Shown here one piece after another: positions 6,013-29,170 of a stretch of DNA of 64,000 nt (the stretch's first letter is position 1; each line of letters starts with the position of its first letter). Origin of the DNA: a virus; IMG/VR virus record IMGVR_UViG_3300044730_002015, positions 32,001 to 96,000 of that record; one strand, written 5' to 3'. Made by a program: the position numbers and the translations under genes. A model generated the notes under the pieces. That model did no database searches. It was not told the DNA's origin and worked only from the letters and a program-made list of their open reading frames with translations.

Positions 6013-6019
6013 AGTGTAT

Positions 6020-6146: not shown

Positions 6147-6180
6147 ACATTGGTAGCGATAACACTTAGGAGAATCCACC

Positions 6181-10984: not shown

Positions 10985-11002
10985 GATAGTTTTTCTCTCC
11001 TT

Positions 11003-12328: not shown

Positions 12329-12339
12329 GGTCAGTGGCT

Positions 12340-12531
12340 TTACTTGGCCTTGGCTTCTTTACGTGCGTTTTTTTCTGCTGTGATTTCGTTGCGACGCAGT
12401 TTTATGGCCTTGGCTGCTTCGGCCAGGGCCTTACGAGCACGGGTACCTGCAGCCGAGTTACCGGATTCAAATTTGGCATCTTCTGCTTCCCAGGCTTTGA
12501 CAGCGTCAAGAATGGCTTGTTTGGTTGACAT
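12340..12531 (-). CDS. Histone H1-like Hc1-family DNA-binding protein
   Basis: KFESGNSAAGTRARKAL...RRNEI motif, Lys/Ala-rich; strong RBS. Confidence 0.75.
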   Translation of the reverse strand: MSTKQAILDAVKAWEAEDAKFESGNSAAGTRARKALAEAAKAIKLRRNEITAEKNARKEAKAK

Positions 12532-14756: not shown

Positions 14757-15590
14757 CTACTCTAGGCCCATCTCGCGGCGTATTTTTGTGGCCGAAATAG
14801 CGTGTGTGGCTTCGTCGAATGACTCTTGCTCGATTCGATAGCCTACATCACGTCCGTAGGTGATGTTCACTATGTTGGGCACCAGGATGATTTCGTACTG
14901 TCCTTGATAAACAGGATCTAGATCACGGCGTATAAGTGATTTGACCTGCTCGGCAGCAAAAGGATTGGAGCCTTGCCAGCCCTGGCAGTCACGGATCATG
15001 ATTGCAACCTGACCGGTCTTGGCTATGGCACGCTCAAACAAGGCCCTATGGCCCGCATGCCAAGGCTGCCAGCGACCCAGCATCTGCACAGTTTCTCGCT
15101 GCCAGTCGAACGTGGGCCTGCGACGGTTTTCCAAGATATGGCTGCCCACGAACTCTGCCCACTTTTCTGCTGCCTGTTCAGTGATGCGGAAGTCGTAGAC
15201 TTCGGGTGGGGTGAAAACTTTGTTGGTGTCTTCAAAGCGACCTTTTTCAATGGTGTCAATCCATATGGTCCAATCGGCCTTGAAGTTGTTGCGCATCTCG
15301 GGCAAGGGTGCCACGAAATCCACTATCACAAAATCATTCAAGAATGAATCTGCTAACTCGCGCATACGCAGACTCTGGCGTATGCGTCCTTCGTGTGAGA
15401 AATCCCAGTCATTGTATTTTTTGCGCACATCGTCCGCGTTAATCCATTTGACCTGCGCACGGCTAGCACTGATGTTTTCAGCGTCGGTGTGATACAGATC
15501 GCTGTGTTGTTCCAAATAAGTTTTGAGTCGTTCAGCAAAGTAGGTCTTGCCCGCACCGGGCAAGCCCATGATCAAGATTCTCTGTGCCAT
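14757..15590 (-). CDS. Adenylylsulfate-kinase-like domain fused to HxGH nucleotidyltransferase domain
   Basis: GLPGAGKT, NADDVR, DFSHEGRIRQ, FVAP, FTPP (CysC-like); GRWQPWHAGH, NPF, ISATKIR (HIGH superfamily). Confidence 0.8.
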   Translation of the reverse strand: MAQRILIMGLPGAGKTYFAERLKTYLEQHSDLYHTDAENISASRAQVKWINADDVRKKYNDWDFSHEGRIRQSLRMRELADSFLNDFVIVDFVAPLPEMRNNFKADWTIWIDTIEKGRFEDTNKVFTPPEVYDFRITEQAAEKWAEFVGSHILENRRRPTFDWQRETVQMLGRWQPWHAGHRALFERAIAKTGQVAIMIRDCQGWQGSNPFAAEQVKSLIRRDLDPVYQGQYEIILVPNIVNITYGRDVGYRIEQESFDEATHAISATKIRREMGLE

Positions 15591-15845: not shown

Positions 15846-16784
15846 TTAGATAAAAGTAGGTCCCGAATCTTTTGCGTCATCGATCACTTCGCCGAAGAAA
15901 GTCTGTTTGGGCCGAGTGCTGTTACGTGGATGATCTAGATTCTCTTCGTTCAATGGCACATCATCTATTTCACGCCAGAATTCTTGGCCGGCCACTGCAT
16001 CTAATATTTCTTTAGGCAGCACATCTTCGGGATAACTGGCAGTGGATTTCAGCACTTTTCTCACAGCGTGCATGTCTTCAAAGCCATAAACATCTGCATC
16101 ATTTTCCTGATGTATGTTCACTAGATTTTCAAAGTCATGCTCATAGTATGTTTCACCCAAGAAGTCATAAACTTTTTGCATGGTCTCCCTAGGATCAGTG
16201 ACCAAATCTCGATATTCGATAAAGTGTATGTTGGCACGATATCCTTCGGCAAGGGCTTTTTTCAAGCCATCAAAGGACTGGCCCAAGATGCCAGGACCGG
16301 CTATGGCCCTGCAGCGATTCTCGTCATTGAGGGCTATGCCCGATCGTATCAGCATCTGATCCACAAAGTTTATGCGCTCGTTTACTATGTGCGGATTGCG
16401 ATGTATCATGGATATAAAAGACGCCAAGATCTCTGCCACATCACGCACAGGGTACAGCACTTTAGGATGCTCAATACCAAAGTATCCAGGAATGTAGTTC
16501 ATGCGATTGACCCAACTGCGATTCTTTTCAAACACCACAGGTCGGTCTGTGTCAGCATAATACTGATCTATCACAGAAGCGATAAGTTTTTGTCCAAAAT
16601 CATATTTGGGAAATGCCAAAAACAACTCGTCTTGGTTCAGTGCTTCTTCCAACAGCAGCATGGTTGGCACCACTGGTGAACTGGGTCCTGAATAAAATCT
16701 GGGATTCTGATTCAGTATGGCCGACAGCATGGTGCTGCCACTGCGTGGCAGGCCCGACATAAAATAATACTTTTTCTTGGTCAT
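15846..16784 (-). CDS. PAPS-dependent sulfotransferase family protein
   Basis: 5'-PSB motif SGLPRSGSTML, ILNQNP, 3'-PB VRD...S, YRDLVTDP...VYDFLG. Confidence 0.88.
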   Translation of the reverse strand: MTKKKYYFMSGLPRSGSTMLSAILNQNPRFYSGPSSPVVPTMLLLEEALNQDELFLAFPKYDFGQKLIASVIDQYYADTDRPVVFEKNRSWVNRMNYIPGYFGIEHPKVLYPVRDVAEILASFISMIHRNPHIVNERINFVDQMLIRSGIALNDENRCRAIAGPGILGQSFDGLKKALAEGYRANIHFIEYRDLVTDPRETMQKVYDFLGETYYEHDFENLVNIHQENDADVYGFEDMHAVRKVLKSTASYPEDVLPKEILDAVAGQEFWREIDDVPLNEENLDHPRNSTRPKQTFFGEVIDDAKDSGPTFI

Positions 16785-17692
16785 GATTGTCCTTGTAATT
16801 GGTCGGTGGCTGCGATAATTTCTTCAACATTGAAGATCTCTTGATCTTCAGTAAAGGGATACTCGCCTTCGTTGCCGTTGAAGTCAAAGTCAAACAAGTA
16901 ACTGTGCGGCAGTTTGAATTCGTAGGGTATCTTGGTGCAGATGTTGGTGTGCAGGTCATAGCCAAACACCTTGGGACTGGTGCCATTCCACAACACCACA
17001 GAAGGCCGTCTCAGTGCTGCCGCTGTGTGTTGCAAACAACTGTCAATCAGGATGTTTTTTTGGCTGTGCAGCAACAGGCTAAACAGTTCCATGGTGCTGA
17101 GGAATTTCTGTGGGGTAGCAAACACATGGTGAGCACCCTTGAGTTTGGGTGAGTTTATTTTGGTCACTTGATAAATGGTGTAGTCTTTGCGATAGTGATC
17201 TACCAGAGCCTGTCCTATGTTTTCCGGCATGTCTCGGGTCCAGGAATAGGCCTTGGCGTCAGTGGTCATCATTCCACCATTGGTATGCAGTACCATGATG
17301 GGTTTGGTGCCGCGTATCCAATACTTCCTGCTGAGATCCTGTTGCAACTTGTTGAGTTTGACCACAGGAGTTTCGCCTTTGTATTCTATGCCATACATCT
17401 TGCACCAGGTCTGTACCAATGGTAATTTTTGGTGTATATGATCTGTGGTAAAGTAAGGTTCATGATGGAATATCAGAGAATCTTGATCTTTGATGTAATT
17501 TTGATAAAAGTAACTTGTACCACCAATGGTGTACACACGGTCTACAAAATCTAGATTGGTAAACACATCGGGATAGGCGCACACCACTATGAGCTTGCGA
17601 TCTGGATGATTGTTCTTGATGGTACGGGCCACGGCTGTGGCTGCCACGTGTTTGCCTAAACCACCTTGTACATGGAAAATGCTGTATTTCAT
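16781..17692 (-). CDS. GT-B glycosyltransferase (GT9/heptosyltransferase-like)
   Basis: GGLGKHVAAT N-terminus; IDSCLQHTAAAL..PSVVLW C-terminal motif. Confidence 0.75.
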   Translation of the reverse strand: MKYSIFHVQGGLGKHVAATAVARTIKNNHPDRKLIVVCAYPDVFTNLDFVDRVYTIGGTSYFYQNYIKDQDSLIFHHEPYFTTDHIHQKLPLVQTWCKMYGIEYKGETPVVKLNKLQQDLSRKYWIRGTKPIMVLHTNGGMMTTDAKAYSWTRDMPENIGQALVDHYRKDYTIYQVTKINSPKLKGAHHVFATPQKFLSTMELFSLLLHSQKNILIDSCLQHTAAALRRPSVVLWNGTSPKVFGYDLHTNICTKIPYEFKLPHSYLFDFDFNGNEGEYPFTEDQEIFNVEEIIAATDQLQGQS

Positions 17693-19002
17693 TTGAGTCC
17701 TTGTGTATGTCTTTCCAACACAGTAAAGCCATTGTTGTTAGTTTTATGTATGCGGAAGCGCCAGTGCGGATTTTTTATTAGGAATTCAATTATGGCAGTG
17801 AGCAGGCCTTGGCGATCACGACCATCTTCGCCGCACAGGCCAAAGGTGTAAGTGTCATGGAATGCTATGTATCGTCGGGCCTTGTTGCCATGCAAGGCCA
17901 ATTCTTTCTGTAACTGTTCGTAGGTATGCAAGGTGTCAATAAACAGCAAATCCATGGGTTCGACTTCTATATCCAGCACATTGGCTTTGATATATTGAAC
18001 AGACTTTCCCTGTGCCTGGGCTTTGAGGAATAGTTCGCGCACCTTAGGATGCAACTCAATATCAAAACTCAACAATTCAACATCGCTGGCCAAGAATGCA
18101 CGAGTACTCACGCCGGTCCTGACTCCAAACTCCACCACTGTCTTGCACTCTTGGGCCAACTCGTATAGTATGTGTACATTTTCATTGATGTCGCTCACAT
18201 TGGTACGAGCCCAGTGATATTCCTGATCGAATACCGTGGCATTTGTGTTATTGAGCTTTTTTGCCAGCCGCTGCCTACTGTACATATTAATCATGTTCTG
18301 GGGAATATCCCAGTTTTTGCTGTTTTTAAAATGTCCGTAGGCCAAGAGATTTTTACTGTCTAGTTCTATGCGGCAGTTGATCTCACTGTCGGGATCATTG
18401 AACTTGGTCAGCGTTTCTGAGATGGTGCCTTTTATGCGGTTGCTGTTGATGGCAAACACACGTTTGGCTCGTTGTGCAAAATAGTCGTCACCGTACCATA
18501 CCTGATACAAACTGGGAATCTCTTGATAAGATTGTTTCATCATGAACATACAGATACCAAATGCCCAGGCCTGGCCACCAATGGGCTTGGTGTCATCGTA
18601 ATTTAATCTAACAATTTCTTCTGCTGTGTCAATGACATCGTCTATGCGATAATTGTTTTGTCTGCCGCGTAGATTCACACCAATGAGATCGCCGGCTTGA
18701 AATGGAAAATCGCTGACCATGTCAATCACGTCGGCTGATACAACAATGTCATCGTTTATGATGCCCAGGACATGTGACTGAGCCCGATAGTAACCTTCGT
18801 TCCAGGCAGGGTTCACAAAGATATTTTTATTGTATGATACTAACTCTACTTTCACATGGTTCAGCACGGACCATTGGGGTCTAGATTTACGATTGTTATC
18901 AATCACTATGATCTTGGCTATTTTGTCGTGATTGGCGTAGATTTCTAGCGCCTGATCAAAGTCCTTGACCATCCACATGGTGGGAATCACTACATCTATC
19001 AT
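17689..19002 (-). CDS. GT-A (GT2-like) glycosyltransferase fused to class I methyltransferase
   Basis: VVIPTMW, IIVIDN, VNPAWNEG, INDDI, WYGDD; then VVEFGVRTGVST, DLLFIDTLHTY, FHDT. Confidence 0.85.
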   Translation of the reverse strand: MIDVVIPTMWMVKDFDQALEIYANHDKIAKIIVIDNNRKSRPQWSVLNHVKVELVSYNKNIFVNPAWNEGYYRAQSHVLGIINDDIVVSADVIDMVSDFPFQAGDLIGVNLRGRQNNYRIDDVIDTAEEIVRLNYDDTKPIGGQAWAFGICMFMMKQSYQEIPSLYQVWYGDDYFAQRAKRVFAINSNRIKGTISETLTKFNDPDSEINCRIELDSKNLLAYGHFKNSKNWDIPQNMINMYSRQRLAKKLNNTNATVFDQEYHWARTNVSDINENVHILYELAQECKTVVEFGVRTGVSTRAFLASDVELLSFDIELHPKVRELFLKAQAQGKSVQYIKANVLDIEVEPMDLLFIDTLHTYEQLQKELALHGNKARRYIAFHDTYTFGLCGEDGRDRQGLLTAIIEFLIKNPHWRFRIHKTNNNGFTVLERHTQGLK

Positions 19003-19658
19003 AGTTTTTTGTCTTGTTTGAAATCGCCTTTGTACACTTTGTTGCCAATGTGAGAAACTGTGTAGTGTGGATTGACCCAGATATCATAGCCCAGTTCCAA
19101 TATCTTTCGGCTGAGCGTGATATCTTCTCCAACAAATCCACCATTCAATGAACTGTATTCGCAGATGTTGCGCAATTTTTTGCCACGGAATTCTAGTTCT
19201 GGATTGCTGGTCCAAAGATCCTCAACTACTTTGCGAGACATTTTGAGAAAACCAGTGCCGGTTTTTTGTACTTTGAAATAACCATCTGCGGGATCTTTTT
19301 CCATGTTTTGTGGGATCCAGATGTTGTAGGTCAAGGGTTCTTTGTCGCCTTTGTTGACTACTGGTACTGTGATCACATCCTTGTTGGACTTGACAATGTC
19401 AATCAAAACCTGCGCGGTCCAGTACTCATCATCGTCGATGAATACCATGGCGTCATAACCATCTTTGTAGGCAAGATTAAACAGTTCATTCCTGGCCATG
19501 GGCAAGATGCTTTCGTTGGCCAAAAATATGCAGCGTATGTCAATGTTGTGCGCCAGGCCCAGTTTGATTGATTCGCAGAGACTATGCACAAAATAGGCAT
19601 CTACCTTTTGATCCAGGCAGGGAGTTGCTACCAAAACTCGTTTTGTTGTTTTTTCCAT
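18999..19658 (-). CDS. GT-A fold glycosyltransferase-like protein
   Basis: VLVATP, ARNEL, FIDDD, GTGFL, GEDI, SHIG. Confidence 0.8.
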   Translation of the reverse strand: MEKTTKRVLVATPCLDQKVDAYFVHSLCESIKLGLAHNIDIRCIFLANESILPMARNELFNLAYKDGYDAMVFIDDDEYWTAQVLIDIVKSNKDVITVPVVNKGDKEPLTYNIWIPQNMEKDPADGYFKVQKTGTGFLKMSRKVVEDLWTSNPELEFRGKKLRNICEYSSLNGGFVGEDITLSRKILELGYDIWVNPHYTVSHIGNKVYKGDFKQDKKL

Positions 19659-19721
19659 AAAAAAAGGATCCTTGGGATCCTGGTATACGACCCAGGGTTA
19701 ATATTATGTATCAACCCTGGG
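19659..19721 (-). promoter_or_regulatory. Tandem hairpins between the Cys-rich fibre and the glycosyltransferase block
   Basis: CCCAGGGTT/AACCCTGGG (19691-19721) with an AT-rich loop; AGGATCC/GGATCCT (19665-19681) followed on minus by a T-run abutting the ATG. Confidence 0.5.
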
Positions 19722-19735
19722 CGCGAGTGGAAAAA

Positions 19736-22700
19736 TTATTGGCTTTCTAGTGCTGCTATGCGTGCCTTGAGACTTTCAATTTCTGTGGAAAGTTCATTCA
19801 CAGCATTGACCAATATGGGAACCATGTAATCACTGGTGATCTGCAGTTTGTCGGGATTGTCTGCAGATACCACCACTGGTGAATCGCCTTCTGCGGCCAG
19901 GACGTTTTGAGCACTGAATCCATAGCGTCGTTTGCCATCGGGATCAGTGATACAGCCTGACTCGCGATCTTTGAAACTATACTCAATGGGTTCGATGCTT
20001 TGCAGGAAACCTCGGCCATGTGGCACACGACCATAGATACATTTGTCTCTGCAGTCTGACACAGCAGTCCACGCAATCTGTATCTGAGCACAGGTATGCG
20101 CATTGTTACCCATGATGATACGATTACATTCTGTGGTGATGTTGGCCAAACCAACCGAAGTCAAACCTGTATTACAACCTATGAGAATGTTATTGCAACC
20201 AAAGGAATTGTTACAGCCAGCGTTGGGCCCTATAAAAATGTTATAGCCACCTGATGTATTAAGCTGTCCAGCATATCTACCAATGAATACCGAATTGCAA
20301 CCAAATGTGGTTTTGAAGCCAGCCTTCATACCAATAAAGGTATTGTAGCATCCGCTGACATTGCATTTTCCAGCGCAGAATCCCAGGTAAGAATTGTATC
20401 GACCGAATGTATTACACTGACCGGCCTGGAATCCAATAAAGAGGTTATGGGTACCGGAGACGTTGGCACAGCCAGCCATGTGTCCAATAAAATGATTTCC
20501 GTTACCGGTGGTGTTACAATTGCCAGCTTGGAAGCCCAGAAACACATTATAACTTCCGGTGGAGTTTTTGCGGCCAGCGCCACTACCAATAAAGATGCCA
20601 GTGCCAGTGGTATTGCATACTCCAGCAAGACATCCAATAAAAATATTATCATAACCTTGATTATTTTGACCGGCCTGGGTACCCAGCATGACGGTATATG
20701 AGCCGGTATTATATTCACCTGCTCGCTGTCCTATGTTTACATTACATTTAGAATAATTGCCAGCAGCCATCGAACCGCCGCCGGCATATTGGCCAATACT
20801 GATGTTTACCGTTGTATAGCAACGTCCTGCGAATTTTCCAATGGCAATTGTTCCGCCTGCGTACTGACCCCTAAATGCTGCGCAGTGACCTGCTGCAAAA
20901 AGATCAACACTTTGATTACATTTACCAGCACAAAAACCAAAAATAATGTTATGGCTACCACAAAGTCCATTCATACCACTGCAGCAGAAGAACAGATTAC
21001 AGGTACCAGCACAATATGTTATGGGTCCTGCACCTGCTGCTGCACCATTCACAAACAATCCAGAAGCTGTGACACAAAGTCTTGCTGTACCTGACCCATT
21101 GTCGCCAATGATTACAGTATTGGAGAGGCCGGCTGTTCCCGCCAAACTTGTACCAGCACCAATGATCACATTGCACACACCAGTGGTTACTGCGCACCCT
21201 GCATTGCAACCAATAAAGGTATTTTTAACGCCAGTGGTGTTGCCGTAGCCAGCACATCTGCCAGCGAAGAAGTTGTATGTACCAATGCTATTACAAAAAC
21301 CTGCGGACCTGCCAAGGATAGTATTATCACTGCCGCTGGTACTGTTATAACCAGCACACTGACCAGCCACAAAGTTGTGAGTACCGGTACCGTTACAGTA
21401 ACCAGCCATTCTGCCCATAAAAATATTATAACCACCTGTGGTAGTAAAATTCCCAGCGCAGTTACCAACCATAAAGTTATGACTGGCAGAGGTTTGGCAA
21501 CGTCCCGCATAATAGCCCAATATTGTGTTATAACTACCGGTATTTCTTAATCCTGCTTGTAGCCCCACAAAGAAATTGCCGCTGGCTGTGGTATTATAAA
21601 AACCGGCGCAGTGGCCAAGGAAAACGTTAAAGCTACCAAAGGTGTTGCAAAAACCTGCAGACATACCAATAAAGTTATTGCCGCGTCCGGTGGTGTGATT
21701 AGCACCTGCATTACAACCAATAAACGTATTGCATCTTCCGGTGGTGTTGCAGCAGCCGGCATTGCGTCCTATAAAGACATTGTGACATCCAGCTGTATTG
21801 CGGAAACCAGCACATGCACCGGCAAAGAAGTTGAACTCGCCATAATAACCACCAGCAAAGCCATTGCAGGTACCTGCACAAAAACCTGCAAAAAAGTTGT
21901 TGTTGCCACTACCACCATTGCCCGAAATACAGCTGGTGATGTTTCTTGTGCCACAGGCCACAAATACACTGCTTCCGCCTACAGCGGAACCGTTTACAAA
22001 CAATCCCGAAGCCGTTACGCACAATCTTGCTGTGCCTGACCCATTGTCACCAATGATCACTGTGTTGCTCAACCCAGCTGAGCCTGCCAATGCTGCACCT
22101 GTACCTATGATTACGTTACATATACCTGTGGTTACTGAGCAGCCTGCATCTACTCCTGCCATAACGTTGCAACTACCGCTGTTTAGAAAATAACCTGCAC
22201 CACCGCCTATAAGTACATTCCTTGTTCCAAACGATACATATCGTCCAGCGGCGCCACCGATTAATGTATTAACATCACCCGAAGTTATACTACAACCTGC
22301 GCAGGCTCCAATGACTATGTTATAGGAACCGCTGGCATTTGCTGCACCTCTACCAGCAGTGTCACCAATAAAGATATTTCGACAACCACGAACATGATTA
22401 CATCCAGAATACCTACCAACATAGAGGTTATAGTTGCCAGAGACATTACATTGGCCTGCACAACTGCCCAGGAATATATCATGCGTTCCGAATTCGTTAC
22501 TACGACCAGCAAACTGGCCAACAAAGATGTTATGACTTGTAATTGTGGTAAAGCCAGCACATTGACCAGCGAAGAAATTATGATTTCCACTGCAATTGCC
22601 GGCGCCCGCACAGTTGCCAAAAACTATGTTGTTTGCACCAGTAATATTTTTACATCCCGCACAGGCGCCTATAAAGACATTGTCTGCGCCAGTGGTGTTG

Positions 22701-25030
22701 GCTGAACCCGCACACTGCCCTGCAAAGAAATTGTCTGTGCCAGTGCCGCCATTGCCCGAGATGCAGCTCACGATATTGCGTGTGCCACAAACCAACATGG
22801 CACCACCGCCACCGCCCACCAATGTGCCATTCACATACAGGCCAGTGGCGTTGGCGCACAATCTCGTGGTTCCACCTGCGGAAATGACCACAGTACAGCA
22901 AAGACCTGCGCTACCTGCATAATTACCAATTATAGTGTTCTCAAATCCCGATACTACCGAACATCCAGCACCCAAGCCAATAAAGATATTGCAAGCACCA
23001 GTGGTGTTGCGTCGACCTGCATATGCTCCGATAAATTGATTGTTGCTGCCAATGGTGTTGCAATAACCGGCGCCTCTTCCAATAAAGGTGTTGCAAACAC
23101 CAGTGGTGGTGTATCGACCTGTACTGCAACCCACAAAGAAGTTGTGACAACTGGCACTGGCAACCAAGCAGCCGGCATATTTTCCAATGAATGTATTGTA
23201 TTGGCCTGCGGTGCCGTTGCTGCCACCACCATAGATAACTGTTCCAGAGGAATTGAAAGGCGAGGATAACTGTGATCCATTCACATATAATCCAGTGTCG
23301 TTGATGCACAACCTTGGAAAGCCGTTGGTCCTTTCGCCGATCATTACTATGTTCTGCATGCCTGCTGTGCCAACTAAGCAACTGGCAGCAGACCCAATTA
23401 TGACATTACATACACCTGTTGTTACAGCACAGCCAGCATTGCAACCAATGAATATATTTTTAGCACCAGTGCTGTTACAACAACCTGCATTGGCACCAAC
23501 GAAGATGTTGTTGGTTCCAATCGTGGTCGCAAATCCAGCATAACGACCAATGGCGATGTTACAACTGCCAGAGGTATTTGCGCGGCCAGCACTGACTCCA
23601 ACAAAAAAGTTGTGGCAGCCAAAGGTATTGAAGATGCCAGCAGCACGACCAATCATGGTGTTGTATGTGCCACTGGTGGTGGACTGACCTGCATAGGCTC
23701 CAGCGAAGAAATTGTTGGTACCAGTGGTAATAAAAGAAGCAGCATAACTACCAATAGCTATGTTATGGACACCGGTGGTAATGCAACGTCCACTGTTTTG
23801 ACCTATTAAGACATTGTTTGAGCCAATGGTGTTGCAGCAGCCGGCATTGCGACCAATAAACGTATTAAAGGTGCCGGTGGTGGTGTTGCGACCAGCACAT
23901 GCACCGGCAAAAAAGTTATCTGTGCCAGCTGTGCCCAGTCTGCCGGCATCTTTGCCGATATAGATGTTATTTGTACCAGTGAGATTACAAAAGCCAGCAT
24001 ATTGTCCAAGAAATACGTTGCATGATCCAAAGGTGTTTCTGGCACCAGTACACTCTCCAATGAATACGTTTCTTTGTCCGCTAGCATTGCCAAAGCCTGA
24101 ATCTTTGCCAATAAAGACATTGTAACTGCCAGTGATATTGCAACGTCCAGCCTGGCGACCAATGTAAACGTTGTATTGGCCAATGGTATTCTGGCAACCA
24201 GCTAGTGGTCCAATGAATACATTCTCTTTGCCGGTGGTAGTAGAAAACCCAGCGCAGCCTCCAATAAAAGTATTACAACTACCAACAGTGTTATTTCTAC
24301 CGGCATACAGTCCGATAAAAGTATTTTGACTTCCTGTGTTATTTAGACAGCCAGCGCGGAATCCAATAAATGTGTTATAGCAACCAGTGCTGATGGCACG
24401 TCCGGCGTCTCTACCAATAGATATGTTATCTTTTGCGCCAACGCAGTTCTCTGCGCCTGCCCCGGCATAGGTTCCAATACCGATATTATTGCAAAATCCT
24501 GCTGCGAATCTGCCTGCGGCATATCCAATAAAGACATTGCATGAACCGGTGGTATTGCACTGACCTGCAAAAGCACCTATCATATTGTTGTAACTACCAG
24601 TACTTAAATTAAATCCAGCAGCCCAACCCAAGGCATTGTTATTATTGCCAGTGGTGTTGCACATACCTGCGCAATGACCAGCAAAGAAATTTCTACTGCC
24701 AATGGTGTTGCATTGACCAGCATACTGTCCAATAAAGATATTGCGACTGCCAGTGGTGTTGAATCGACCAGCATATTGGCCCAGGAACGTGTTATAGCAA
24801 CCTGTTGTGGTGCGACCACCAGCCGCGCGGCCGATCATGAGATTGTGACTACCAATGGTCAAGCAAGCACCAGCGTTGGGACTGATCACAGTGTTGTATG
24901 TGCCAGTGGTTAGGGCTGCACCGGCACCGTTGCCAGCAAAAAAGTTGCTGCCAGATTTATTGTAATTGGTTACATTACATAAATTTCTGCTGTCATCTAC
25001 TACTGTGGTTCCTGCGACTTTGATAGCCAT
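19736..25030 (-). CDS. Cys-rich tail fibre with ~18-aa beta-roll repeats and C-terminal peptidase S74 intramolecular chaperone
   Basis: Repeats N-x-F-I-G-x-x-A-G-x-x-N-T-T-G; SDCRDK, YGFSAQ, MVPILVNAVNEL plus coiled coil. Confidence 0.85.
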   Translation of the reverse strand: MAIKVAGTTVVDDSRNLCNVTNYNKSGSNFFAGNGAGAALTTGTYNTVISPNAGACLTIGSHNLMIGRAAGGRTTTGCYNTFLGQYAGRFNTTGSRNIFIGQYAGQCNTIGSRNFFAGHCAGMCNTTGNNNNALGWAAGFNLSTGSYNNMIGAFAGQCNTTGSCNVFIGYAAGRFAAGFCNNIGIGTYAGAGAENCVGAKDNISIGRDAGRAISTGCYNTFIGFRAGCLNNTGSQNTFIGLYAGRNNTVGSCNTFIGGCAGFSTTTGKENVFIGPLAGCQNTIGQYNVYIGRQAGRCNITGSYNVFIGKDSGFGNASGQRNVFIGECTGARNTFGSCNVFLGQYAGFCNLTGTNNIYIGKDAGRLGTAGTDNFFAGACAGRNTTTGTFNTFIGRNAGCCNTIGSNNVLIGQNSGRCITTGVHNIAIGSYAASFITTGTNNFFAGAYAGQSTTSGTYNTMIGRAAGIFNTFGCHNFFVGVSAGRANTSGSCNIAIGRYAGFATTIGTNNIFVGANAGCCNSTGAKNIFIGCNAGCAVTTGVCNVIIGSAASCLVGTAGMQNIVMIGERTNGFPRLCINDTGLYVNGSQLSSPFNSSGTVIYGGGSNGTAGQYNTFIGKYAGCLVASASCHNFFVGCSTGRYTTTGVCNTFIGRGAGYCNTIGSNNQFIGAYAGRRNTTGACNIFIGLGAGCSVVSGFENTIIGNYAGSAGLCCTVVISAGGTTRLCANATGLYVNGTLVGGGGGAMLVCGTRNIVSCISGNGGTGTDNFFAGQCAGSANTTGADNVFIGACAGCKNITGANNIVFGNCAGAGNCSGNHNFFAGQCAGFTTITSHNIFVGQFAGRSNEFGTHDIFLGSCAGQCNVSGNYNLYVGRYSGCNHVRGCRNIFIGDTAGRGAANASGSYNIVIGACAGCSITSGDVNTLIGGAAGRYVSFGTRNVLIGGGAGYFLNSGSCNVMAGVDAGCSVTTGICNVIIGTGAALAGSAGLSNTVIIGDNGSGTARLCVTASGLFVNGSAVGGSSVFVACGTRNITSCISGNGGSGNNNFFAGFCAGTCNGFAGGYYGEFNFFAGACAGFRNTAGCHNVFIGRNAGCCNTTGRCNTFIGCNAGANHTTGRGNNFIGMSAGFCNTFGSFNVFLGHCAGFYNTTASGNFFVGLQAGLRNTGSYNTILGYYAGRCQTSASHNFMVGNCAGNFTTTGGYNIFMGRMAGYCNGTGTHNFVAGQCAGYNSTSGSDNTILGRSAGFCNSIGTYNFFAGRCAGYGNTTGVKNTFIGCNAGCAVTTGVCNVIIGAGTSLAGTAGLSNTVIIGDNGSGTARLCVTASGLFVNGAAAGAGPITYCAGTCNLFFCCSGMNGLCGSHNIIFGFCAGKCNQSVDLFAAGHCAAFRGQYAGGTIAIGKFAGRCYTTVNISIGQYAGGGSMAAGNYSKCNVNIGQRAGEYNTGSYTVMLGTQAGQNNQGYDNIFIGCLAGVCNTTGTGIFIGSGAGRKNSTGSYNVFLGFQAGNCNTTGNGNHFIGHMAGCANVSGTHNLFIGFQAGQCNTFGRYNSYLGFCAGKCNVSGCYNTFIGMKAGFKTTFGCNSVFIGRYAGQLNTSGGYNIFIGPNAGCNNSFGCNNILIGCNTGLTSVGLANITTECNRIIMGNNAHTCAQIQIAWTAVSDCRDKCIYGRVPHGRGFLQSIEPIEYSFKDRESGCITDPDGKRRYGFSAQNVLAAEGDSPVVVSADNPDKLQITSDYMVPILVNAVNELSTEIESLKARIAALESQ

Positions 25031-25041
25031 CTTCGTTGTCC

Positions 25042-26889
25042 TTAACTAGGCTTTGTATTTTTCAACTGATCAATCTGTTGCTGCTGTTCTTTGATGGCCT
25101 CGATCAGTATGGCTATCAAAGGCAGATAAGACACTGTCAATCCGCGTTCTTCTGAGTGTACCAACTCGGGTAACACTTGGATTAAATCTTGGGCTATGAT
25201 ACCATAGCTCTTGTTACCAGTTTCTTTCCACTTGAAACTCACGCCCTGTATGCTATTTATTTTGCTCAAGGCCGATTTGATGTTCTTGACATTTTTCTTG
25301 AAATTACGGTCTGAAGAAGTGTTGACATCCGTGGCTGTGAGTGTGCCTGAACTGGGGTTGAATGTGAGTTTGGTTGACGATATGGTGGCAGTGGTCAGCG
25401 AGCCCGAAGTGGCAGTGGCAAACACCGGATAGTAGTTGCTGTTGGTTGTGGTATCATCGGCTATGGTGGCGCCACCGCTGGAAATGCCTGTGAGCTGGCT
25501 GCCGTTGCCCAGTAGATATGAACCAGAAATGTTGCCCGAAGCGTTGATATTGCCAGTGACTGTCAAGATATTGGCAATATTAGCACCGTGGCTGAGTGCC
25601 ATGGTGTTGCTGGTACTGTTGTAGAAGAATGTGATGTTGCCACCAGAGGAGATATTGCCAATCTGTAGGCCGGCACCGTTAAGATCTGACAAAGTGGCAT
25701 TAGCATTGGCAGCAACGATGATGTCTTTGTCTGCTAAGAATATATTTGCAACATTGATTTCAGTTGTGGTACCTTCAACCCGCAGGTTACCTAGTATTAC
25801 TGCATTATGGGTAACCTGAAGATTACCAGCATTGACATTTGCAGAAACATTAAGATACTGACCGCTTACATTACCAAGAGCATTCACGTTGCCAGGATTG
25901 ACGTTGCCGGCAAGATTTATATCAGTTAATACTTGCCCTGTGAGATTGACGTCTTTGACATCCAACAGTGTGCCAACATTAAGATTATCAGTTGTTATAA
26001 GAGAAGTTACTGCAATATTACCAGCGGCGATATTACCTGTAGTAACAATATTGCTGGTCAATGAACCACTGGCCAAGTAGTTGGCTACTATTGCGTTGCT
26101 ATAACCTGCGGGTAGACCTGTTATAAATGCACCGTTGCCCAATAGATATGCAGCTGTTAGGTTACCTGTGGTACTGAAGCCACCAGCGGTAATGTTGGCG
26201 CTGGCTGTGACCGTGCCCGATCCATCCAGTTCCACTGTGGTGACTGCATCACCTCTTTTTACTCTTATCACTCCGCCCGTGCCACCCGAGAATGAATCTA
26301 AGGATGTGACATTTGCCGCGCCACCTATGATAGCTCCGCTGGTGATTAGGTTGCCACCAGTGATATTGCCCGAGGTGTCAATGTTGCCTGTAAGGGTGGT
26401 ACCTTCGGTGACCACTGTGTTGCCTGCAACTGTCAATTGTCCGTCTGCAATGCCCACCGATACGCCACCAATATAAATTGTGTTGTTGGACACATACAAA
26501 CTGCGCCATTGCAGTGTGTTAGAGCCAAGATCTGTGGTAGCATTGGATTGTGGTAAAACGTAAGCGGCAGTGATGTTGGCAGTGGTGATGATGTTGCCGG
26601 TCAATGAAACCAAATTGCCGGTATATGTGGGCAGGTATGCAGCCACATTTGAGTTGCTGTAGGTGCTGCCGCTCACAATGCCAGTCAAGAAAGCACCGTT
26701 GCCTAATATATATGTTCCCGAAATGTTACCGCTGCTGGTAATATTGCCTGTGGCAGTAATTACCCCAGTGACAGCGATGTTACCCGAATTGGCTATGCCA
26801 CTTTGGCTTAGGTCAAGCAAACTTCCCACAGGGATTTCTTGAATCTGTGAACTAGTAGTGTTAGCGATCAGTGGAAAATAATTGGCCAT
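25042..26889 (-). CDS. Tail fibre protein with peptidase S74 chaperone domain
   Basis: GNIT-type repeats; SSDRNFKKN, GVSFKWK, GIIAQD, LIEAIKE. Confidence 0.85.
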   Translation of the reverse strand: MANYFPLIANTTSSQIQEIPVGSLLDLSQSGIANSGNIAVTGVITATGNITSSGNISGTYILGNGAFLTGIVSGSTYSNSNVAAYLPTYTGNLVSLTGNIITTANITAAYVLPQSNATTDLGSNTLQWRSLYVSNNTIYIGGVSVGIADGQLTVAGNTVVTEGTTLTGNIDTSGNITGGNLITSGAIIGGAANVTSLDSFSGGTGGVIRVKRGDAVTTVELDGSGTVTASANITAGGFSTTGNLTAAYLLGNGAFITGLPAGYSNAIVANYLASGSLTSNIVTTGNIAAGNIAVTSLITTDNLNVGTLLDVKDVNLTGQVLTDINLAGNVNPGNVNALGNVSGQYLNVSANVNAGNLQVTHNAVILGNLRVEGTTTEINVANIFLADKDIIVAANANATLSDLNGAGLQIGNISSGGNITFFYNSTSNTMALSHGANIANILTVTGNINASGNISGSYLLGNGSQLTGISSGGATIADDTTTNSNYYPVFATATSGSLTTATISSTKLTFNPSSGTLTATDVNTSSDRNFKKNVKNIKSALSKINSIQGVSFKWKETGNKSYGIIAQDLIQVLPELVHSEERGLTVSYLPLIAILIEAIKEQQQQIDQLKNTKPS

Positions 26890-26908
26890 TTGTATGTCTT
26901 TTTAATAT

Positions 26909-27286
26909 TTATGCACTTATTGGTATGTTGATAGTTCCCGAACGTCCGTATACCACTAGATAACCGGATATGATGGCAAAGTTTACAAGCCCCATACTTC
27001 TTGTCAATACTTGTAGGTTGCCGCCGCTGCTGGCATTGATGCCAGTAAGTTGGCTGCCGTTACCAAATAGATAACTAGCGGTAATATTGGCGCTGGTAAT
27101 GATGTTGCCCGTGGCGCCCAGTGTGGTGAAATTGCCAGCAGCCGGGGTGGCATTGCCGATAATAATGCCATTGATAGCACCAGTAGAAGCCAATTGCCAG
27201 CCTTGGCCGTTGAAAACCCAGGTTTTGTTATTAAACGTGTAGTAGTCGTTGACACTGGGGTTCGAGGGAAAATCAATAGTGGCCAT
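26909..27286 (-). CDS. Small tail-fibre-associated protein
   Basis: IDFPSNP...TWVFNGQGW N-terminal module and the shared YLFGNGSQLTG repeat. Confidence 0.7.
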   Translation of the reverse strand: MATIDFPSNPSVNDYYTFNNKTWVFNGQGWQLASTGAINGIIIGNATPAAGNFTTLGATGNIITSANITASYLFGNGSQLTGINASSGGNLQVLTRSMGLVNFAIISGYLVVYGRSGTINIPISA

Positions 27287-27371
27287 ATAATTTGTTCAGG
27301 AATATCCTATGTTATATTTATTATCACAACACCAAAGGTATCTCGCGTGATTATGCTGAGATCCATTGCGT

Positions 27372-28277
27372 TCAAGCAGAACTAACCTGGAAAGTGCCCG
27401 ATGAGGTAAAAGTATGCACTGTGTTGCCGCCCACTGTGGATACGGTACCACCGGTGGCCTTTTGCGAGCCAACATAACTGAAGATCACTATGCCCGGACC
27501 ACCTGTTCCCGCTGCTGCAGGAGAGCCACCCAAGCCACCACCACCTCCGCCCCCGGTGTTGACATTGCCCGGAGTTGACGCAAATGCAGGTGCCAATCCA
27601 CCAGCGCATCCGCCTTTGCCACCACCGCCTAGTCCGCCTGATGAAAATGAAAAAAGTTGTGTAGGAAGTTGGGTAGCGGCACCTCCGCCACCACCACCTC
27701 CGTAGTAAGTTGATGTGCCGGTGATACTGCTGGTAGATCCAGCACCACCTGGGCCACCCAGACGGGCGCCGGTGGTAGCGGGCGATGCTGTACCAGCCGA
27801 ACCCGCTGCGCCGATGGGTCCTCCTCCTCCGCCTCCGCCGCCAGCTCCATCAGTGTTGGGCAAAAATCGTTGTCCAGCACCGCCGGGGCCACCAAACGTG
27901 CCAGTACCAACGGTAGCATCTGCGTTGTAACCGCCTTGCCCGCCGCCACCTGCTCCCGGTGTGGCCGCTGTAGCTCCAGCAAATGAACTGGCACCACCGC
28001 CACCACCGCCCAAAGAACTCACTGTGACACCGCTACCTGTGATATCAGTGTTGGCTCCGCGTGTGCTGGCGCCGCCACCTCCGCCAACTGTGACCACATA
28101 AGGTCCCGTGGACACAGTGGTCACACCTTCTAGCACACGGCCTCCGCCACCTCCGCCACCTTGGTCATCGCCGCCACCGCCACCTGCACCTACCGCGAGA
28201 TATCGTACAGTAAAACTCTGTGGAAAGTACTGGTTGTAAAGCGTGGTATTACTAATGGTTATGCCAGTGAATAACAT
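27372..28277 (-). CDS. Gly-rich adhesin-like protein
   Basis: YLAVGAGGGGG ... GGPGIVIFSY ... HTFTSSGTF. Confidence 0.75.
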   Translation of the reverse strand: MLFTGITISNTTLYNQYFPQSFTVRYLAVGAGGGGGDDQGGGGGGGRVLEGVTTVSTGPYVVTVGGGGGASTRGANTDITGSGVTVSSLGGGGGGASSFAGATAATPGAGGGGQGGYNADATVGTGTFGGPGGAGQRFLPNTDGAGGGGGGGGPIGAAGSAGTASPATTGARLGGPGGAGSTSSITGTSTYYGGGGGGGAATQLPTQLFSFSSGGLGGGGKGGCAGGLAPAFASTPGNVNTGGGGGGGLGGSPAAAGTGGPGIVIFSYVGSQKATGGTVSTVGGNTVHTFTSSGTFQVSSA

Positions 28278-28284
28278 AATTTTC

Positions 28285-29157
28285 CTATACGGTAGAGGTC
28301 AGTGTAAATGTACCAGGTGCTGTGAATGTATGATATGTATAGCCACCTGAACTGGTAATGACACCACCTGTACCCTTGGTTCCGCCCTCGTATCTAACTA
28401 TGACTGTGCCGGGTCCTCCTGTGCCACCTGCATTGGGTGAAGTGCCTGTTCCGCCAGCACCACCTCCACCACCGCCACGACCGGGTGTGGCTGCAACCAC
28501 ACCACCACCGCTGCTGCCCCCGGTACCGGCACCTGATGTGGGTGTACCTCCCCCGATGCCACCTGAACCCGCGGAAGATCCTCCCCCACCGCCAGCACCA
28601 TAGATCACACCATCTACCCAGGTATAGCCTGCGCCACCGTCGCCGCCAGGGCCTGTGCCGCTGCCGCCCACACCTGGAGATCCTGCACCACCAGCACCAC
28701 CGCCACCGCCACCGCCGTTACGAGCACTGACTGCTCCGGGATTGCCCTGTGGGGGACTTGTGGGTGGTGTGTTGCCTGAGCCGGCTGTTTGACTGGCATA
28801 AGCACTACCAGCACCGGCACCACCGCCCGATGCTCCCGATGTGCCTGAACTGTTTTGGCTGCCACCACCGCCACCACCGGCTGCCGTCAATCCAAAACCT
28901 GTGCTGCTGTCACCAGAGCCTCCAGAGGATGGAGAGGTTGTCCGGCCAGCACCGCCGGTGCCCACAGTGACAGGATATGCAGCCGGAGCCGAAGATACCT
29001 GAGTTGATCCGGTTAGCACACCACCACCGCCACCACCGCCGGCAGCATCAAATCCACCGCCTCCACCAGCACCAACCACTATGTATTCTAATAACACATT
29101 GGGTACAAAGGTATTAATCATTGTGGCATTTTGTACAGTGGTTTCTGAAATTATCAT
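28285..29157 (-). CDS. Gly-rich adhesin-like protein
   Basis: Start re-called at MIISET; YIVVGAGGGGG ... GGPGTVIVRY ... HTFTAPGTF. Confidence 0.75.
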   Translation of the reverse strand: MIISETTVQNATMINTFVPNVLLEYIVVGAGGGGGFDAAGGGGGGGVLTGSTQVSSAPAAYPVTVGTGGAGRTTSPSSGGSGDSSTGFGLTAAGGGGGGSQNSSGTSGASGGGAGAGSAYASQTAGSGNTPPTSPPQGNPGAVSARNGGGGGGGAGGAGSPGVGGSGTGPGGDGGAGYTWVDGVIYGAGGGGGSSAGSGGIGGGTPTSGAGTGGSSGGGVVAATPGRGGGGGGAGGTGTSPNAGGTGGPGTVIVRYEGGTKGTGGVITSSGGYTYHTFTAPGTFTLTSTV

Positions 29158-29170
29158 GTTGGGTCCTTGA

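What the first reader, a model, noticed from the sequence alone, without database searches (positions are those of the whole stretch)
19736..25030. Tail fibre with ~6% cysteine scattered over variable repeat positions
Seen: a hand count gives about 109 Cys in 1764 aa, whereas the neighbouring 3863-aa fibre has only about two. Cys occupies the variable positions of the N-x-F-I-G-x-x-A-G repeat, the linkers and even the S74 cleavage region (SDCRDKC). Inference: there is selection for many exposed thiols, not one conserved disulfide pattern. They could be modification acceptors, inter-chain crosslinks in a trimer, or metal/redox sites.
Basis: partly seen in the sequence, partly recalled or inferred. 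Interest (0 to 1): 0.75.

Follow-up and report, generated by a model that had tools for sequence, protein, structure and literature searches.

The report
Cysteine-studded phage fibre tied to glycosyltransferase
A giant water phage makes a tail fibre carrying about one exposed, unpaired cysteine per turn of its shaft. Such fibres occur almost only in phages that also encode a particular sugar-adding enzyme, so the cysteines are probably sugar attachment points, which has never been shown on a virus.

Summary
The ORF lies on the minus strand, 19736-25030, and encodes 1764 aa with exactly 109 Cys (6.18%). Other window ORFs average 0.35%, and the 3863-aa fibre has 2.

The shaft has about 70 copies of a 17-residue unit, G-x-x-N-x-F-I-G-x-x-A-G-x-x-N-T-T. 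It models as a single-chain beta-solenoid. Cys occupies only the six variable positions that follow the three conserved Gly.

- Cys does not stack, shows no strong pairing and avoids CxxC and CC.
- Cys is spread more evenly than chance, at about one per rung.
- Sites turn over between homologues (46% conserved), while density is kept.

The trait is not unique. In a Cys-blind sample of 101 viral repeat fibres, 14 were Cys-rich and 78 had no Cys at these positions. A GT9-fold glycosyltransferase, encoded three genes downstream here, was found in 9 of 14 Cys-rich records and 0 of 28 Cys-poor records. The cultured SAR11 phage HTVC112P also has it.

The best reading is that the cysteines are acceptors for sugars joined through sulfur (S-linked). 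This is unproven. Disulfide and metal-site readings are weakened.

The scan has flagged the same pairing on other DNA. I reached this reading before seeing those notes.

The parts
19736..25030 (-). Tail-fibre ORF, 1764 aa, 109 Cys (P0001); the stop codon is 19736-19738
   Evidence: PHROG 4636 tail spike, E 4e-114
24854..25030 (-). N-terminal region, residues 1-59. It begins MAIKVAGTTVVDDSR and has 2 Cys. AG-345-L05's fibre begins with a similar peptide, MAIKISGSTIVDDSR. Probably the attachment end.
23417..24853 (-). Repeat block 1, residues 60-538. It consists of 17-residue solenoid units with Cys at unit positions 2, 3, 9, 10, 13 and 14.
23207..23416 (-). Linker module 1, residues 539-608. 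It contains the R-L-C ... G-L-Y-V-N-G element and 3 Cys.
22898..23206 (-). Repeat block 2, residues 609-711
22742..22897 (-). Linker module 2, residues 712-763, 4 Cys. Most of it (through residue 749) is low-confidence in the AF2 model.
22076..22741 (-). Repeat block 3, residues 764-985. It is modelled as a beta-solenoid with a strand at unit positions 5-7.
21908..22075 (-). Linker module 3, residues 986-1041, 3 Cys. It is a near-duplicate of module 4.
21182..21907 (-). Repeat block 4, residues 1042-1283
20960..21181 (-). Linker module 4, residues 1284-1357, 7 Cys
20150..20959 (-). Repeat block 5, residues 1358-1627, with partly degenerate units
19739..20059 (-). S74-like C-terminal intramolecular-chaperone domain, starting at S1658 (S-D-C-R-D-K-C). 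Its Cys (1660, 1664, 1693) occur only in Cys-rich-class relatives.
   Evidence: Pfam PF13884, 18.4 bits, below the cut-off of 22. Homologues 65-71% identical here; other homologues carry PF13884. Cys conservation.
18999..19658 (-). 219-aa protein with weak GT2-like similarity; first gene of the downstream cassette
   Evidence: Pfam GT2 E 0.012, below cut-off; PHROG 1574. Syntenic in 24 of 28 related loci.
17689..19002 (-). 437-aa methyltransferase-domain protein (Methyltransf_24)
16781..17692 (-). 303-aa GT9-fold (GT-B) glycosyltransferase. Its presence tracks Cys-studded fibres across phages.
   Evidence: AF2 pLDDT 75.7. Foldseek: 3tov 1.4e-9, WaaF, WaaC, TibC 4e-7. Association.
15846..16784 (-). 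312-aa sulfotransferase
   Evidence: Pfam Sulfotransfer_3, 2.8e-15; syntenic
14757..15590 (-). 277-aa protein with an APS-kinase-like N-terminal half (candidate PAPS supply)

Best explanation
The gene encodes a phage tail fibre. A C-terminal S74-like chaperone domain suggests it assembles as a trimer. Its shaft is a beta-solenoid of 17-residue rungs. The three conserved glycines (G1, G8, G12) mark the turns, and the two residues after each glycine point to solvent.

In this fibre subfamily those six positions are 15-20% cysteine. That gives about one unpaired thiol per rung along the whole shaft. Selection keeps the density and the even spread of cysteine, not particular sites or pairs.

The trait is inherited together with a small GT9-fold glycosyltransferase. 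In this phage the cassette also holds a GT2-like protein, a methyltransferase, a sulfotransferase and an APS-kinase fusion.

The most likely mechanism is as follows. Before lysis, in the reducing cytoplasm, the GT9-type enzyme transfers a sugar onto the exposed cysteine thiols (S-glycosylation). The other cassette enzymes may then extend, methylate and sulfate the glycan. This would work like TibC/AAH heptosylating serines on the TibA/AIDA-I beta-helix. The sugar would cap the thiols, so they do not oxidise in sea or lake water. It would also give a glycan coat that glycosidases cannot remove.

Shown here: the cysteine count, its positions, the lack of pairing, the site turnover, the enzyme's fold and the co-occurrence. 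Inferred: that the fibre is the enzyme's substrate and that cysteine is the acceptor.
For: **Position and exposure**
- Cys is confined to the positions after the conserved Gly.
- The same positions hold R, K, D, E, N, S and Y in homologues.
- These positions are mostly non-strand in the AF2 solenoid model.

**No pairing logic**
- Same-position stacking is 8 observed against about 11 expected in P0001. It is at chance in 1005 pooled units.
- The pairs 10/13 (CxxC) and 13/14 (CC) are depleted, z -3.3 and -3.7.
- There are fewer Cys-free rungs than chance, 310 against 348, P<0.0005. Variance in P0001 is 0.54 against 0.88, P=0.005.

**Turnover**
- Cys is 46% conserved between homologue pairs roughly 57-79% identical, similar to S, R and Y. 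It is most often exchanged with Ser.

**Heritable subfamily trait**
- Cys-rich rows cluster on a tree of the C-terminal domain built with Cys masked. The tree needs 4 changes, against 12.5 for shuffled labels.

**The enzyme**
- The model of the 303-aa protein matches GT9 enzymes, including TibC.

**Coupling to the enzyme**
- 57 of 57 repeat fibres near close GT9-like genes have 7.7-21.8% Cys at the variable positions.
- 68 of 68 fibres beside the distant (24% identical) HTVC112P gp49-type enzyme carry Cys there, 1.3-11.1%.
- In a Cys-blind sample, GT9-like is present in 9 of 14 Cys-rich records and 0 of 28 Cys-poor records.
- Three phage records with Cys-free fibres, two of them cultured phages, lack the enzyme. 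Two records with Cys-bearing fibres, one a cultured phage, have it.
- Ser and Thr are not enriched in enzyme-linked fibres. They are lower by 3.6 and 4.3 points.

**Precedents**
- TibC heptosylates Ser on a beta-helix (PMC4358343).
- A GT-B enzyme, OGT, transfers efficiently to Cys, and the S-linked sugar resists hydrolysis (PMC8386111).
- S-linked sugars on Cys exist in glycocins (PMC6405829).
Against: - There is no biochemical evidence of any modification.
- The co-occurrence could reflect inheritance of a fibre-plus-enzyme module. The close GT9-like loci form only 3 clusters at 75% identity. About four enzyme sub-lineages are sampled in all.
- One 99%-complete 353-kb phage (G005) has a Cys-bearing fibre but no GT9-like gene and no recognisable transferase nearby.
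- Known GT9 and BAHT enzymes use oxygen acceptors. Known S-glycosyltransferases are GT2 enzymes.
- Pfam's GT9 model scores below its cut-off here (18 bits against 22).
- Ser is also abundant at the same positions and could be the true acceptor.
- Cys also appears in the C-terminal chaperone domain, which is presumed to be released. That fits a more general tolerance of cysteine.
- Exposure in a trimer was not computed.
Confidence: 0.45

Rival explanations
1. Oxidative curing. The thiols stay free in the cytoplasm. After lysis they oxidise into stochastic intra- or inter-chain disulfides, or fibre-to-baseplate disulfides, that stiffen or anchor the fibre. These may be reducible at the host surface.
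For: - In cyanophage Pam3 the fibres are disulfide-linked to the baseplate, sporadically, and DTT releases them (PMC9942802).
- Cys density is high enough that some stacked pairs arise by chance. In pooled data 49 of 674 adjacent rungs have a 14/14' pair.
- There is weak enrichment of 14->3' (z 2.9) and 14->9' (z 3.1).
- Cys-rich forms occur in oxic surface ocean: the GOS-derived P0047, HTVC112P and AG-345-L05.
Against: - Stacked pairs are not enriched, and close pairs are avoided (10/13, 13/14).
- In P0001, 31 of 63 strict units have a single Cys.
- Cys sites turn over like ordinary surface residues, 46% conserved. Structural disulfides are usually among the most conserved residues (general knowledge).
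- This reading does not explain the link with the glycosyltransferase.
Confidence: 0.2
2. The cysteines act as free functional thiols. They could bind soft metals (Fe, Zn, Cu), sense redox state or light-driven oxidants, or form covalent or coordinate contacts with the host surface. The glycosyltransferase would decorate other residues, or the host.
For: - The thiols are exposed and evenly spread.
- Arg is co-enriched with Cys, by 3.6 to 5 points. Nearby Arg would lower the thiol pKa.
- In a trimer, one Cys per rung per chain could place three thiols at one level (inference).
Against: - Chelating motifs are rare and statistically avoided. P0001 has CxxC twice and CC five times, and the pairs 10/13 and 13/14 are depleted.
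- The same positions hold bulky charged residues in relatives, so they are unlikely to face a tight three-fold axis.
- Free surface thiols would not stay reduced in oxic surface water, where relatives live.
Confidence: 0.15
3. There is no direct function. Surface Cys is merely tolerated in this lineage and accumulated by drift or mutational bias. Tolerance could come from a glycan coat on other residues shielding the thiols, or from life in reducing water.
For: - Sites turn over.
- Cys also appears at polar sites of the chaperone domain in Cys-rich relatives.
- Cys mostly replaces small residues, A, T, S and G.
Against: - Cys reaches 15-20% at six positions, against 0.35% background and 0.0% in 78 of 101 sampled fibres. 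The distribution is sharply bimodal.
- Spacing is more even than chance.
- The trait is kept while the partner enzyme diverged to 24% identity.
- The habitat includes upper-ocean phages.
- An A-to-G codon shift would raise Ser and Gly too, and it does not.
Confidence: 0.12
4. Targeted hypermutation, as by a diversity-generating retroelement, acts on the variable codons and produces Cys among other residues.
For: The residues seen at variable positions (C, Y, N, S, R, H, F, D, G) are all NNY codons reachable from AAY.
Against: - There is no reverse transcriptase in the 169.5-kb record, though the record is only 48% complete.
- The pattern spans about 70 repeats over 5 kb, not one short variable region.
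- Q, K and E also occur at these positions.
- The trait is stable and clade-wide.
Confidence: 0.02

Closest known systems
BAHT systems: the autotransporter heptosyltransferases TibC and AAH with their beta-helical adhesins TibA and AIDA-I (PMC4358343; PDB 4rb4, 4rap, 4q1q)
   Same: A GT9-fold GT-B enzyme is encoded with a long beta-solenoid built of short repeats. The enzyme hyper-modifies the solenoid in the cytoplasm at many surface sites. Both halves are matched structurally here: the enzyme model to TibC (Foldseek 4e-7) and the fibre model to glycosylated TibA (Z 16.0).
   Different: - The system is in a phage virion fibre, not a secreted bacterial adhesin.
- The enzyme has 303 aa against about 400. 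Presence of TibC's iron-finger and dodecamer inserts was not examined.
- The known acceptor is Ser. Here the residue that co-varies with the enzyme is Cys.
- Sequence similarity is below Pfam's cut-off.
- This phage adds a methyltransferase, a sulfotransferase and PAPS genes.
Glycocin S-glycosyltransferases (SunS, ThuS, PalS type) that put sugars on Cys of bacteriocins (PMC6405829, PMC12457901)
   Same: They are the only well-established enzymatic S-glycosylation of Cys in bacteria. They show that a thiol can be a natural sugar acceptor.
   Different: These are GT2 (GT-A) enzymes that act on one or two Cys of a small peptide. Here the candidate is a GT9-fold enzyme, and there are about 100 Cys on a 1764-aa structural protein. 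The 219-aa GT2-like neighbour matches GT2 only weakly (E 0.012).
O-GlcNAc transferase acting on cysteine (S-GlcNAc) (PMC8386111)
   Same: It is a GT-B enzyme that accepts Cys in place of Ser. The S-linked product resists hydrolysis. This shows chemical plausibility and a possible advantage.
   Different: It is a eukaryotic GT41 enzyme, and its activity on Cys is a side activity. It has no relation to virions.
Cyanophage Pam3 fibre-baseplate disulfides (PMC9942802)
   Same: Cysteines on a phage fibre have a demonstrated role in an aquatic phage, and that role is redox-sensitive.
   Different: Pam3 uses one defined Cys per fibre chain, paired with defined wedge Cys. Here there are about 100 dispersed Cys with no strong partners and ongoing site turnover.
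Endosialidase-type fibres with a C-terminal intramolecular chaperone (Pfam Peptidase_S74, PF13884)
   Same: The C-terminal S-D-x-R-x-K motif and the domain that follows are present. The neighbouring 615-aa fibre has a clear PF13884 hit.
   Different: This copy scores below Pfam's cut-off. It carries Cys inside the motif region (S-D-C-R-D-K-C).
Trimeric autotransporter (YadA-like) head repeats
   Same: The short N-x-(hydrophobic)-x-G-x-x-A repeat looks similar. The BpaC head gave the highest sequence identity among the fold matches (19%).
   Different: The period is 17 residues, not 14. There is no Pfam YadA_head hit. The fold match is poor (rmsd 8-9 A) compared with right-handed beta-helices (rmsd 3.5-3.9 A).

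Membership tests
Peptidase_S74 intramolecular chaperone fibres (PF13884) | Pfam model match above the gathering score | tested here: not met
   18.4 bits against a cut-off of 22 for the C-terminal 145 aa. There is no hit for the full protein.
Peptidase_S74 intramolecular chaperone fibres (PF13884) | S-D-x-R-x-K cleavage motif at the domain start, and homology to proteins that carry PF13884 | tested here: met
   S1658-D-C-R-D-K is present. The Pfam alignment starts at S1658. Homologues with a related C-terminal domain in the A2 alignment (22-59% identical, six of seven at 44-59%) carry PF13884.
Peptidase_S74 intramolecular chaperone fibres (PF13884) | Autoproteolytic release after trimerisation | not testable with these tools
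   Needs protein expression.
BAHT-type protein glycosylation system (GT9 enzyme plus beta-helix substrate) | Enzyme has the GT9 GT-B fold | tested here: met
   Foldseek: 3tov 1.4e-9, 1psw 2.5e-9, WaaC 4e-7, TibC 4e-7, TM 0.5-0.66. The model has pLDDT 75.7.
BAHT-type protein glycosylation system (GT9 enzyme plus beta-helix substrate) | Sequence membership in Pfam Glyco_transf_9 | tested here: not met
   18 bits against a cut-off of 22, E 0.0019, over residues 202-244 only. PDB sequence search: WaaC at E 0.56.
BAHT-type protein glycosylation system (GT9 enzyme plus beta-helix substrate) | Enzyme gene linked to a beta-solenoid repeat protein | tested here: met
   Synteny. Solenoid fold, Z 15-17 to Vag8, TibA, pertactin and Ag43.
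BAHT-type protein glycosylation system (GT9 enzyme plus beta-helix substrate) | Heptose transferred to Ser of the substrate | not testable with these tools
   Needs MS. The comparative signal points to Cys rather than Ser.
Glycocin-type S-glycosyltransferase (GT2) | GT2 catalytic domain recognisable by sequence | tested here: inconclusive
   The 219-aa neighbour gives Pfam GT2 E 0.012 (16 bits against 23.3) and PHROG 34859 at 1.7e-4. There is no PDB sequence match.
Disulfide-laddered beta-helices (regular Cys stacks or pairs) | Cys at fixed repeat positions, stacked or paired from rung to rung and conserved | tested here: not met
   Stacking is at or below chance, there is no strong pair covariation, and Cys is 46% conserved.
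YadA-like head (PF05658) | Pfam match and a 14-residue left-handed beta-roll | tested here: inconclusive
   There is no Pfam hit and the period is 17. TAA heads were matched only at rmsd 8-9 A.
Diversity-generating retroelement target | Reverse transcriptase and a template repeat in the genome | tested here: inconclusive
   No RVT_1 match in the record, but the record is 48% complete. No template-repeat search was made.

The most novel reading that the evidence does not exclude
A widespread group of aquatic phages, from T4-like giants to SAR11 podophages, enzymatically attaches sugars to dozens or a hundred cysteine thiols along a tail fibre. In this phage the sugars would then be methylated and sulfated using phage-made PAPS. 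This would be the first S-glycosylated virion, the first GT9-type S-glycosyltransferase and by far the most heavily S-glycosylated protein known.
Probability: 0.35. Interest if true: 0.88.

Novelty: new variant of a known kind. Interest (0 to 1): 0.72.

Why it matters
Unpaired surface cysteines are normally avoided in extracellular proteins. A fibre with one per rung, kept over long divergence and tied to a dedicated transferase, points to virion chemistry that has not been described.

If the thiols carry S-linked glycans, several things follow:
- Phages would have a sugar coat on their host-recognition organ that hydrolases cannot remove. That bears on adsorption, host range, grazing and decay of abundant marine phages. 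HTVC111P-type pelagiphages are reported to be as abundant in upper waters as T4-like cyanophages (10.1101/2019.12.14.876532).
- It would provide a natural enzyme for making stable S-glycoproteins.
- Fibre annotation could use a simple rule: cysteine at the positions after the conserved glycines predicts a partner transferase.

A cultured phage, HTVC112P, carries the minimal pair of fibre gp48 and transferase gp49, so the idea can be tested directly.

Tried and rejected

Sample metadata and neighbours of the metagenomic homologues could not be read.
- The search for related loci found nothing with P0001 alone. The narrower A4 and A5 worked.
- The genome-contig scan with A5 found no bacterial relative.
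- One large MAFFT job failed.
- The PDB sequence search of the fibre found nothing. Foldseek on the 601-residue fibre model found nothing below 1e-3. VIA-align was needed.
- AF2 gives no coordinates and models monomers only.
- P0040, P0042, P0043 and P0044 (132 Cys each) turned out to be about 100% identical, so they were useless for turnover.

**Ideas rejected**
- Cys ladders.
- CxxC or CC metal sites.
- A purely mutational A-to-G shift, because Ser and Gly do not rise with Cys.
- An anoxic-habitat explanation for the family. Cys-bearing relatives come from GOS surface water, Pacific seawater and a cultured SAR11 phage. The habitat of this particular contig is unknown.
- A diversity-generating retroelement.
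- The conserved N-T-T sequon as the enzyme-linked site. It is equally conserved in fibres that lack the enzyme.
Full report
**1. The observation**

The ORF at 19736-25030 is on the minus strand and encodes 1764 aa. It contains exactly 109 Cys (6.18%), from 53 TGT and 56 TGC codons. The neighbouring 3863-aa fibre has exactly 2. The other 27 minus-strand ORFs of the window hold 57 Cys in 16,438 residues (0.35%), so the excess is about 18-fold (binomial P about 4e-95).

PHROG profiles identify a tail spike or fibre (phrog_4636, E 4e-114). Pfam finds nothing for the whole protein. The window lies in a 169.5-kb IMG/VR virus record judged 48% complete. No close relative exists among deposited phages.

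**2. Anatomy**

The protein is almost entirely a 17-residue unit, G1-x-x-N4-x-F6-I7-G8-x-x-A11-G12-x-x-N15-T16-T17. A strict pattern finds 63 copies and a looser one finds 70. The units form five blocks separated by four related linker modules.

The protein ends in an S74-like chaperone domain that begins at S1658, in the motif S-D-C-R-D-K-C. This domain scores 18.4 bits in Pfam, below the cut-off of 22. Homologues with a related C-terminal domain (six of seven are 44-59% identical there) carry PF13884.

In strict units, 72 of 74 Cys lie at positions 2, 3, 9, 10, 13 and 14. These are the two residues after each of the three conserved glycines.

An AF2 model of residues 690-1290 has mean pLDDT 73.8. 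The linkers are poorly modelled. The repeats form a single-chain beta-solenoid with a strand at positions 5-7 in 23 of 24 units. Positions 3, 9, 10 and 13 are never in a strand.

VIA-align matches right-handed beta-helices at Z 15-17 and rmsd 3.5-4.8 A. The matches include Vag8, a Klebsiella phage depolymerase, the Pam1 tailspike, phi29 gp12, glycosylated TibA, pertactin and Ag43. Foldseek and a PDB sequence search gave nothing significant.

In 2847 units from homologues, the six Cys positions are filled by S, N, Y, D, R, K, E and Q. They are therefore solvent-facing. This is an inference from composition, not from coordinates.

**3. No pairing logic**

In P0001 no within-rung or rung-to-next-rung combination of Cys positions exceeds chance. 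Same-position stacking is 8 observed against about 11 expected. CxxC occurs twice and CC five times.

Cys per rung is under-dispersed, with variance 0.54 against 0.88 expected (P=0.005). There are 12 Cys-free rungs against 17 expected.

I pooled 1005 units from 38 Cys-rich homologues:
- Cys-free rungs are again too few (310 against 348, P<0.0005).
- The close pairs 10/13 and 13/14 are avoided (z -3.3 and -3.7).
- Stacked pairs are at chance.
- Only weak excesses appear, for 14->3' and 14->9' (z about 3 among 51 tests).

In eight homologue pairs roughly 57-79% identical, Cys at these positions is conserved in 46% of cases. This is hardly more than Ser (38%), Arg (40%) or Tyr (36%). Cys is most often exchanged with Ser.

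Density and spacing are therefore maintained, not individual sites. This is the opposite of what structural disulfides or chelating sites would show.

**4. The trait belongs to a subfamily**

Among the 120 best metagenomic homologues, Cys at the variable positions is bimodal. Forty-one proteins average 15.9% and 55 average 0.2%. P0001 at 19% is typical of the rich class. Its whole-protein figure is the highest only because nearly all of it is repeat.

On a tree of the C-terminal domain built with Cys masked, the Cys-rich proteins cluster. The tree needs 4 changes against 12.5 for shuffled labels, and P0001 lies in a 99%-supported group of 16, of which 15 are rich. Even the Cys in the chaperone region occur only in Cys-rich-class relatives.

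I drew a Cys-blind sample with a DNA motif for A-G-x-x-N-T-T-G-x-x-N. It gave 101 viral repeat fibres: 14 with 7.3-21.8% Cys at the variable positions, 9 with 0.5-2.2% and 78 with none. In this sample Cys mainly replaces A, T, S and G, and Arg rises slightly.

Relatives reach 127 Cys (L063) and 111 Cys (L049).

Cys-bearing forms occur in oxic surface waters:
- P0047 comes from the AACY02 marine metagenome.
- AG-345-L05, from Pacific seawater, has a fibre that begins with a similar N-terminal peptide (MAIKISGSTIVDDSR) and holds 75 Cys.
- The cultured SAR11 phage HTVC112P has 14 Cys, all at unit positions 3, 9, 10 or 13. Its group is reported as abundant in upper waters.

**5. The link to a glycosyltransferase**

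Downstream of the fibre lie five genes: a GT2-like 219-aa protein, a methyltransferase, a 303-aa protein with a weak GT9 hit, a sulfotransferase and an APS-kinase fusion.

In 28 IMG/VR loci that share the fibre's C-terminal domain:
- 24 have the first four cassette genes in the same order right behind the fibre, at 44-79% identity.
- Three more have only the GT9-like and sulfotransferase genes.
- Of four loci without any cassette gene, three have no repeat units and little Cys. The fourth has six units and 3.2% Cys.

The 303-aa protein models as a GT-B enzyme (pLDDT 75.7). Its best structural matches are GT9 enzymes: 3tov at 1.4e-9, WaaF, WaaC and the autotransporter heptosyltransferase TibC at 4e-7.

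The association holds in several samples:
- 80 viral loci have a close homologue of this enzyme (216 exist; they form 35 clusters at 90% identity and 3 at 75%). Of these, 57 have a repeat fibre within 10 kb, and every one has 7.7-21.8% Cys at the variable positions.
- HTVC112P gp49, annotated as a glycosyltransferase and sitting directly after fibre gp48, is a distant homologue (24% identity, profile E 1.6e-17). Of 80 loci with gp49-type genes, 68 have the adjacent fibre. All carry Cys at these positions (1.3-11.1%, median 7.3).
- In the Cys-blind sample, whole-record searches found the enzyme in 9 of 14 Cys-rich records and in 0 of 28 Cys-poor records. Four of the Cys-poor records are at least 90% complete.
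- CRP-1, Venkman and LR756500 have Cys-free fibres and lack the enzyme.

Ser and Thr are not higher in enzyme-linked fibres. The conserved N-T-T sequon is present with or without the enzyme.

**6. Interpretation**

The arrangement parallels TibC/AAH, GT9-type enzymes that hyper-glycosylate serines on the TibA/AIDA-I beta-helix (PMC4358343). Both halves of that system appear among the structural matches here.

The residue that tracks the enzyme is cysteine. A GT-B enzyme (OGT) is known to transfer efficiently to Cys, giving a hydrolysis-resistant product (PMC8386111). S-linked sugars also exist in glycocins. I therefore think the most likely role of the cysteines is as S-glycosylation acceptors, modified in the cytoplasm before lysis. 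This would also explain why about 100 surface thiols are tolerated in oxic water.

This is inference. I put it at about 0.45.

Weaknesses:
- The fibre type and the enzyme may simply travel together as a module, and only about four enzyme sub-lineages are sampled.
- One nearly complete 353-kb phage has a Cys-bearing fibre without the enzyme or any recognisable transferase nearby.
- No GT9 enzyme is known to use a thiol.
- Ser could still be the acceptor.

**7. Rivals**

- Post-lysis disulfide curing has a precedent in Pam3 (PMC9942802). It is weakened by the lack of pairing, by site turnover and by the unexplained enzyme link.
- Metal or redox sites are weakened by the avoidance of CxxC and CC.
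- Neutral tolerance does not fit the bimodality, the even spacing or the long persistence of the trait.
- A retroelement origin has no support.

**8. Prior art**

Full-text searches found no paper describing cysteine-rich phage fibres or S-glycosylated virions. The pelagiphage preprint annotates the transferase but does not mention cysteine.

After I had reached this reading, the scan's own notes showed that several other windows from other genomes were flagged for the same pairing and given the same tentative reading. I count these as agreement, not as evidence.

**9. Limits**

- No trimer model or coordinates were available.
- The habitat and host of this contig are unknown.

Noticed in passing
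L318 (G005:C1:167000-186900), fibre at 9857-12394: A 99%-complete 353-kb phage has a Cys-bearing repeat fibre (10% Cys at the variable positions) but no GT9-like gene anywhere in the record. Nearby genes include a SufBD-like Fe-S assembly protein, thymidylate synthase and DHFR. This is the one clear exception to the enzyme-cysteine link.
   Followed up: partly
window 27372-30265 and 13085-14332 (minus): Three tandem paralogous glycine-rich proteins (about 33% Gly; PF21722 Gly_rich_2 was scanned and hit on one of the three) lie between the fibre genes. A fourth Gly-rich protein of 415 aa (28% Gly, PF21722 hit) lies downstream. All are nearly free of Cys.
   Followed up: no
window 26909-27286 (minus): A 125-aa ORF gives a sub-threshold hit to the Chlorovirus glycoprotein repeat (PF06598, E 6.5e-4, 20 bits against a cut-off of 27).
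   Followed up: no
L003 (MN698246.1, HTVC112P) 3668-6819: A cultured SAR11 podophage carries the minimal pair. Fibre gp48 has 14 Cys, all at repeat positions 3, 9, 10 or 13. It is followed directly by glycosyltransferase gp49, a distant homologue of the window's GT9-like protein. At least 217 IMG/VR contigs share this gene. This is a ready experimental system.
   Followed up: yes
P0040, P0042-P0044 (ENA metagenome proteins, 2409-2411 aa): These near-identical fibres have 132 Cys each. They show recurring short Cys-containing modules (G-G-C-L-K-L ... D-G-S-C-S-G-C) between repeat blocks, which look more regular than the shaft cysteines.
   Followed up: no
Cys-rich versus Cys-poor homologues: Arg, and to a lesser degree His and Phe, rise together with Cys at the variable positions. 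In the biased homologue set, acidic residues fall. The Cys-rich shafts are therefore more basic.
   Followed up: partly
L002 (MH319754.1) 16582-29588: In AG-345-L05 the Cys-rich fibre is followed by three paralogous proteins of about 950 aa with similar N-termini. These are interleaved with two sulfotransferases and a weak (21% identical) match to the window's 219-aa GT2-like gene. The cassette is expanded there.
   Followed up: no
window 11003-11554 (minus): A 183-aa ORF matches only a short piece of the DNA polymerase III alpha NTPase domain. It may be a fragment or a split gene.
   Followed up: no
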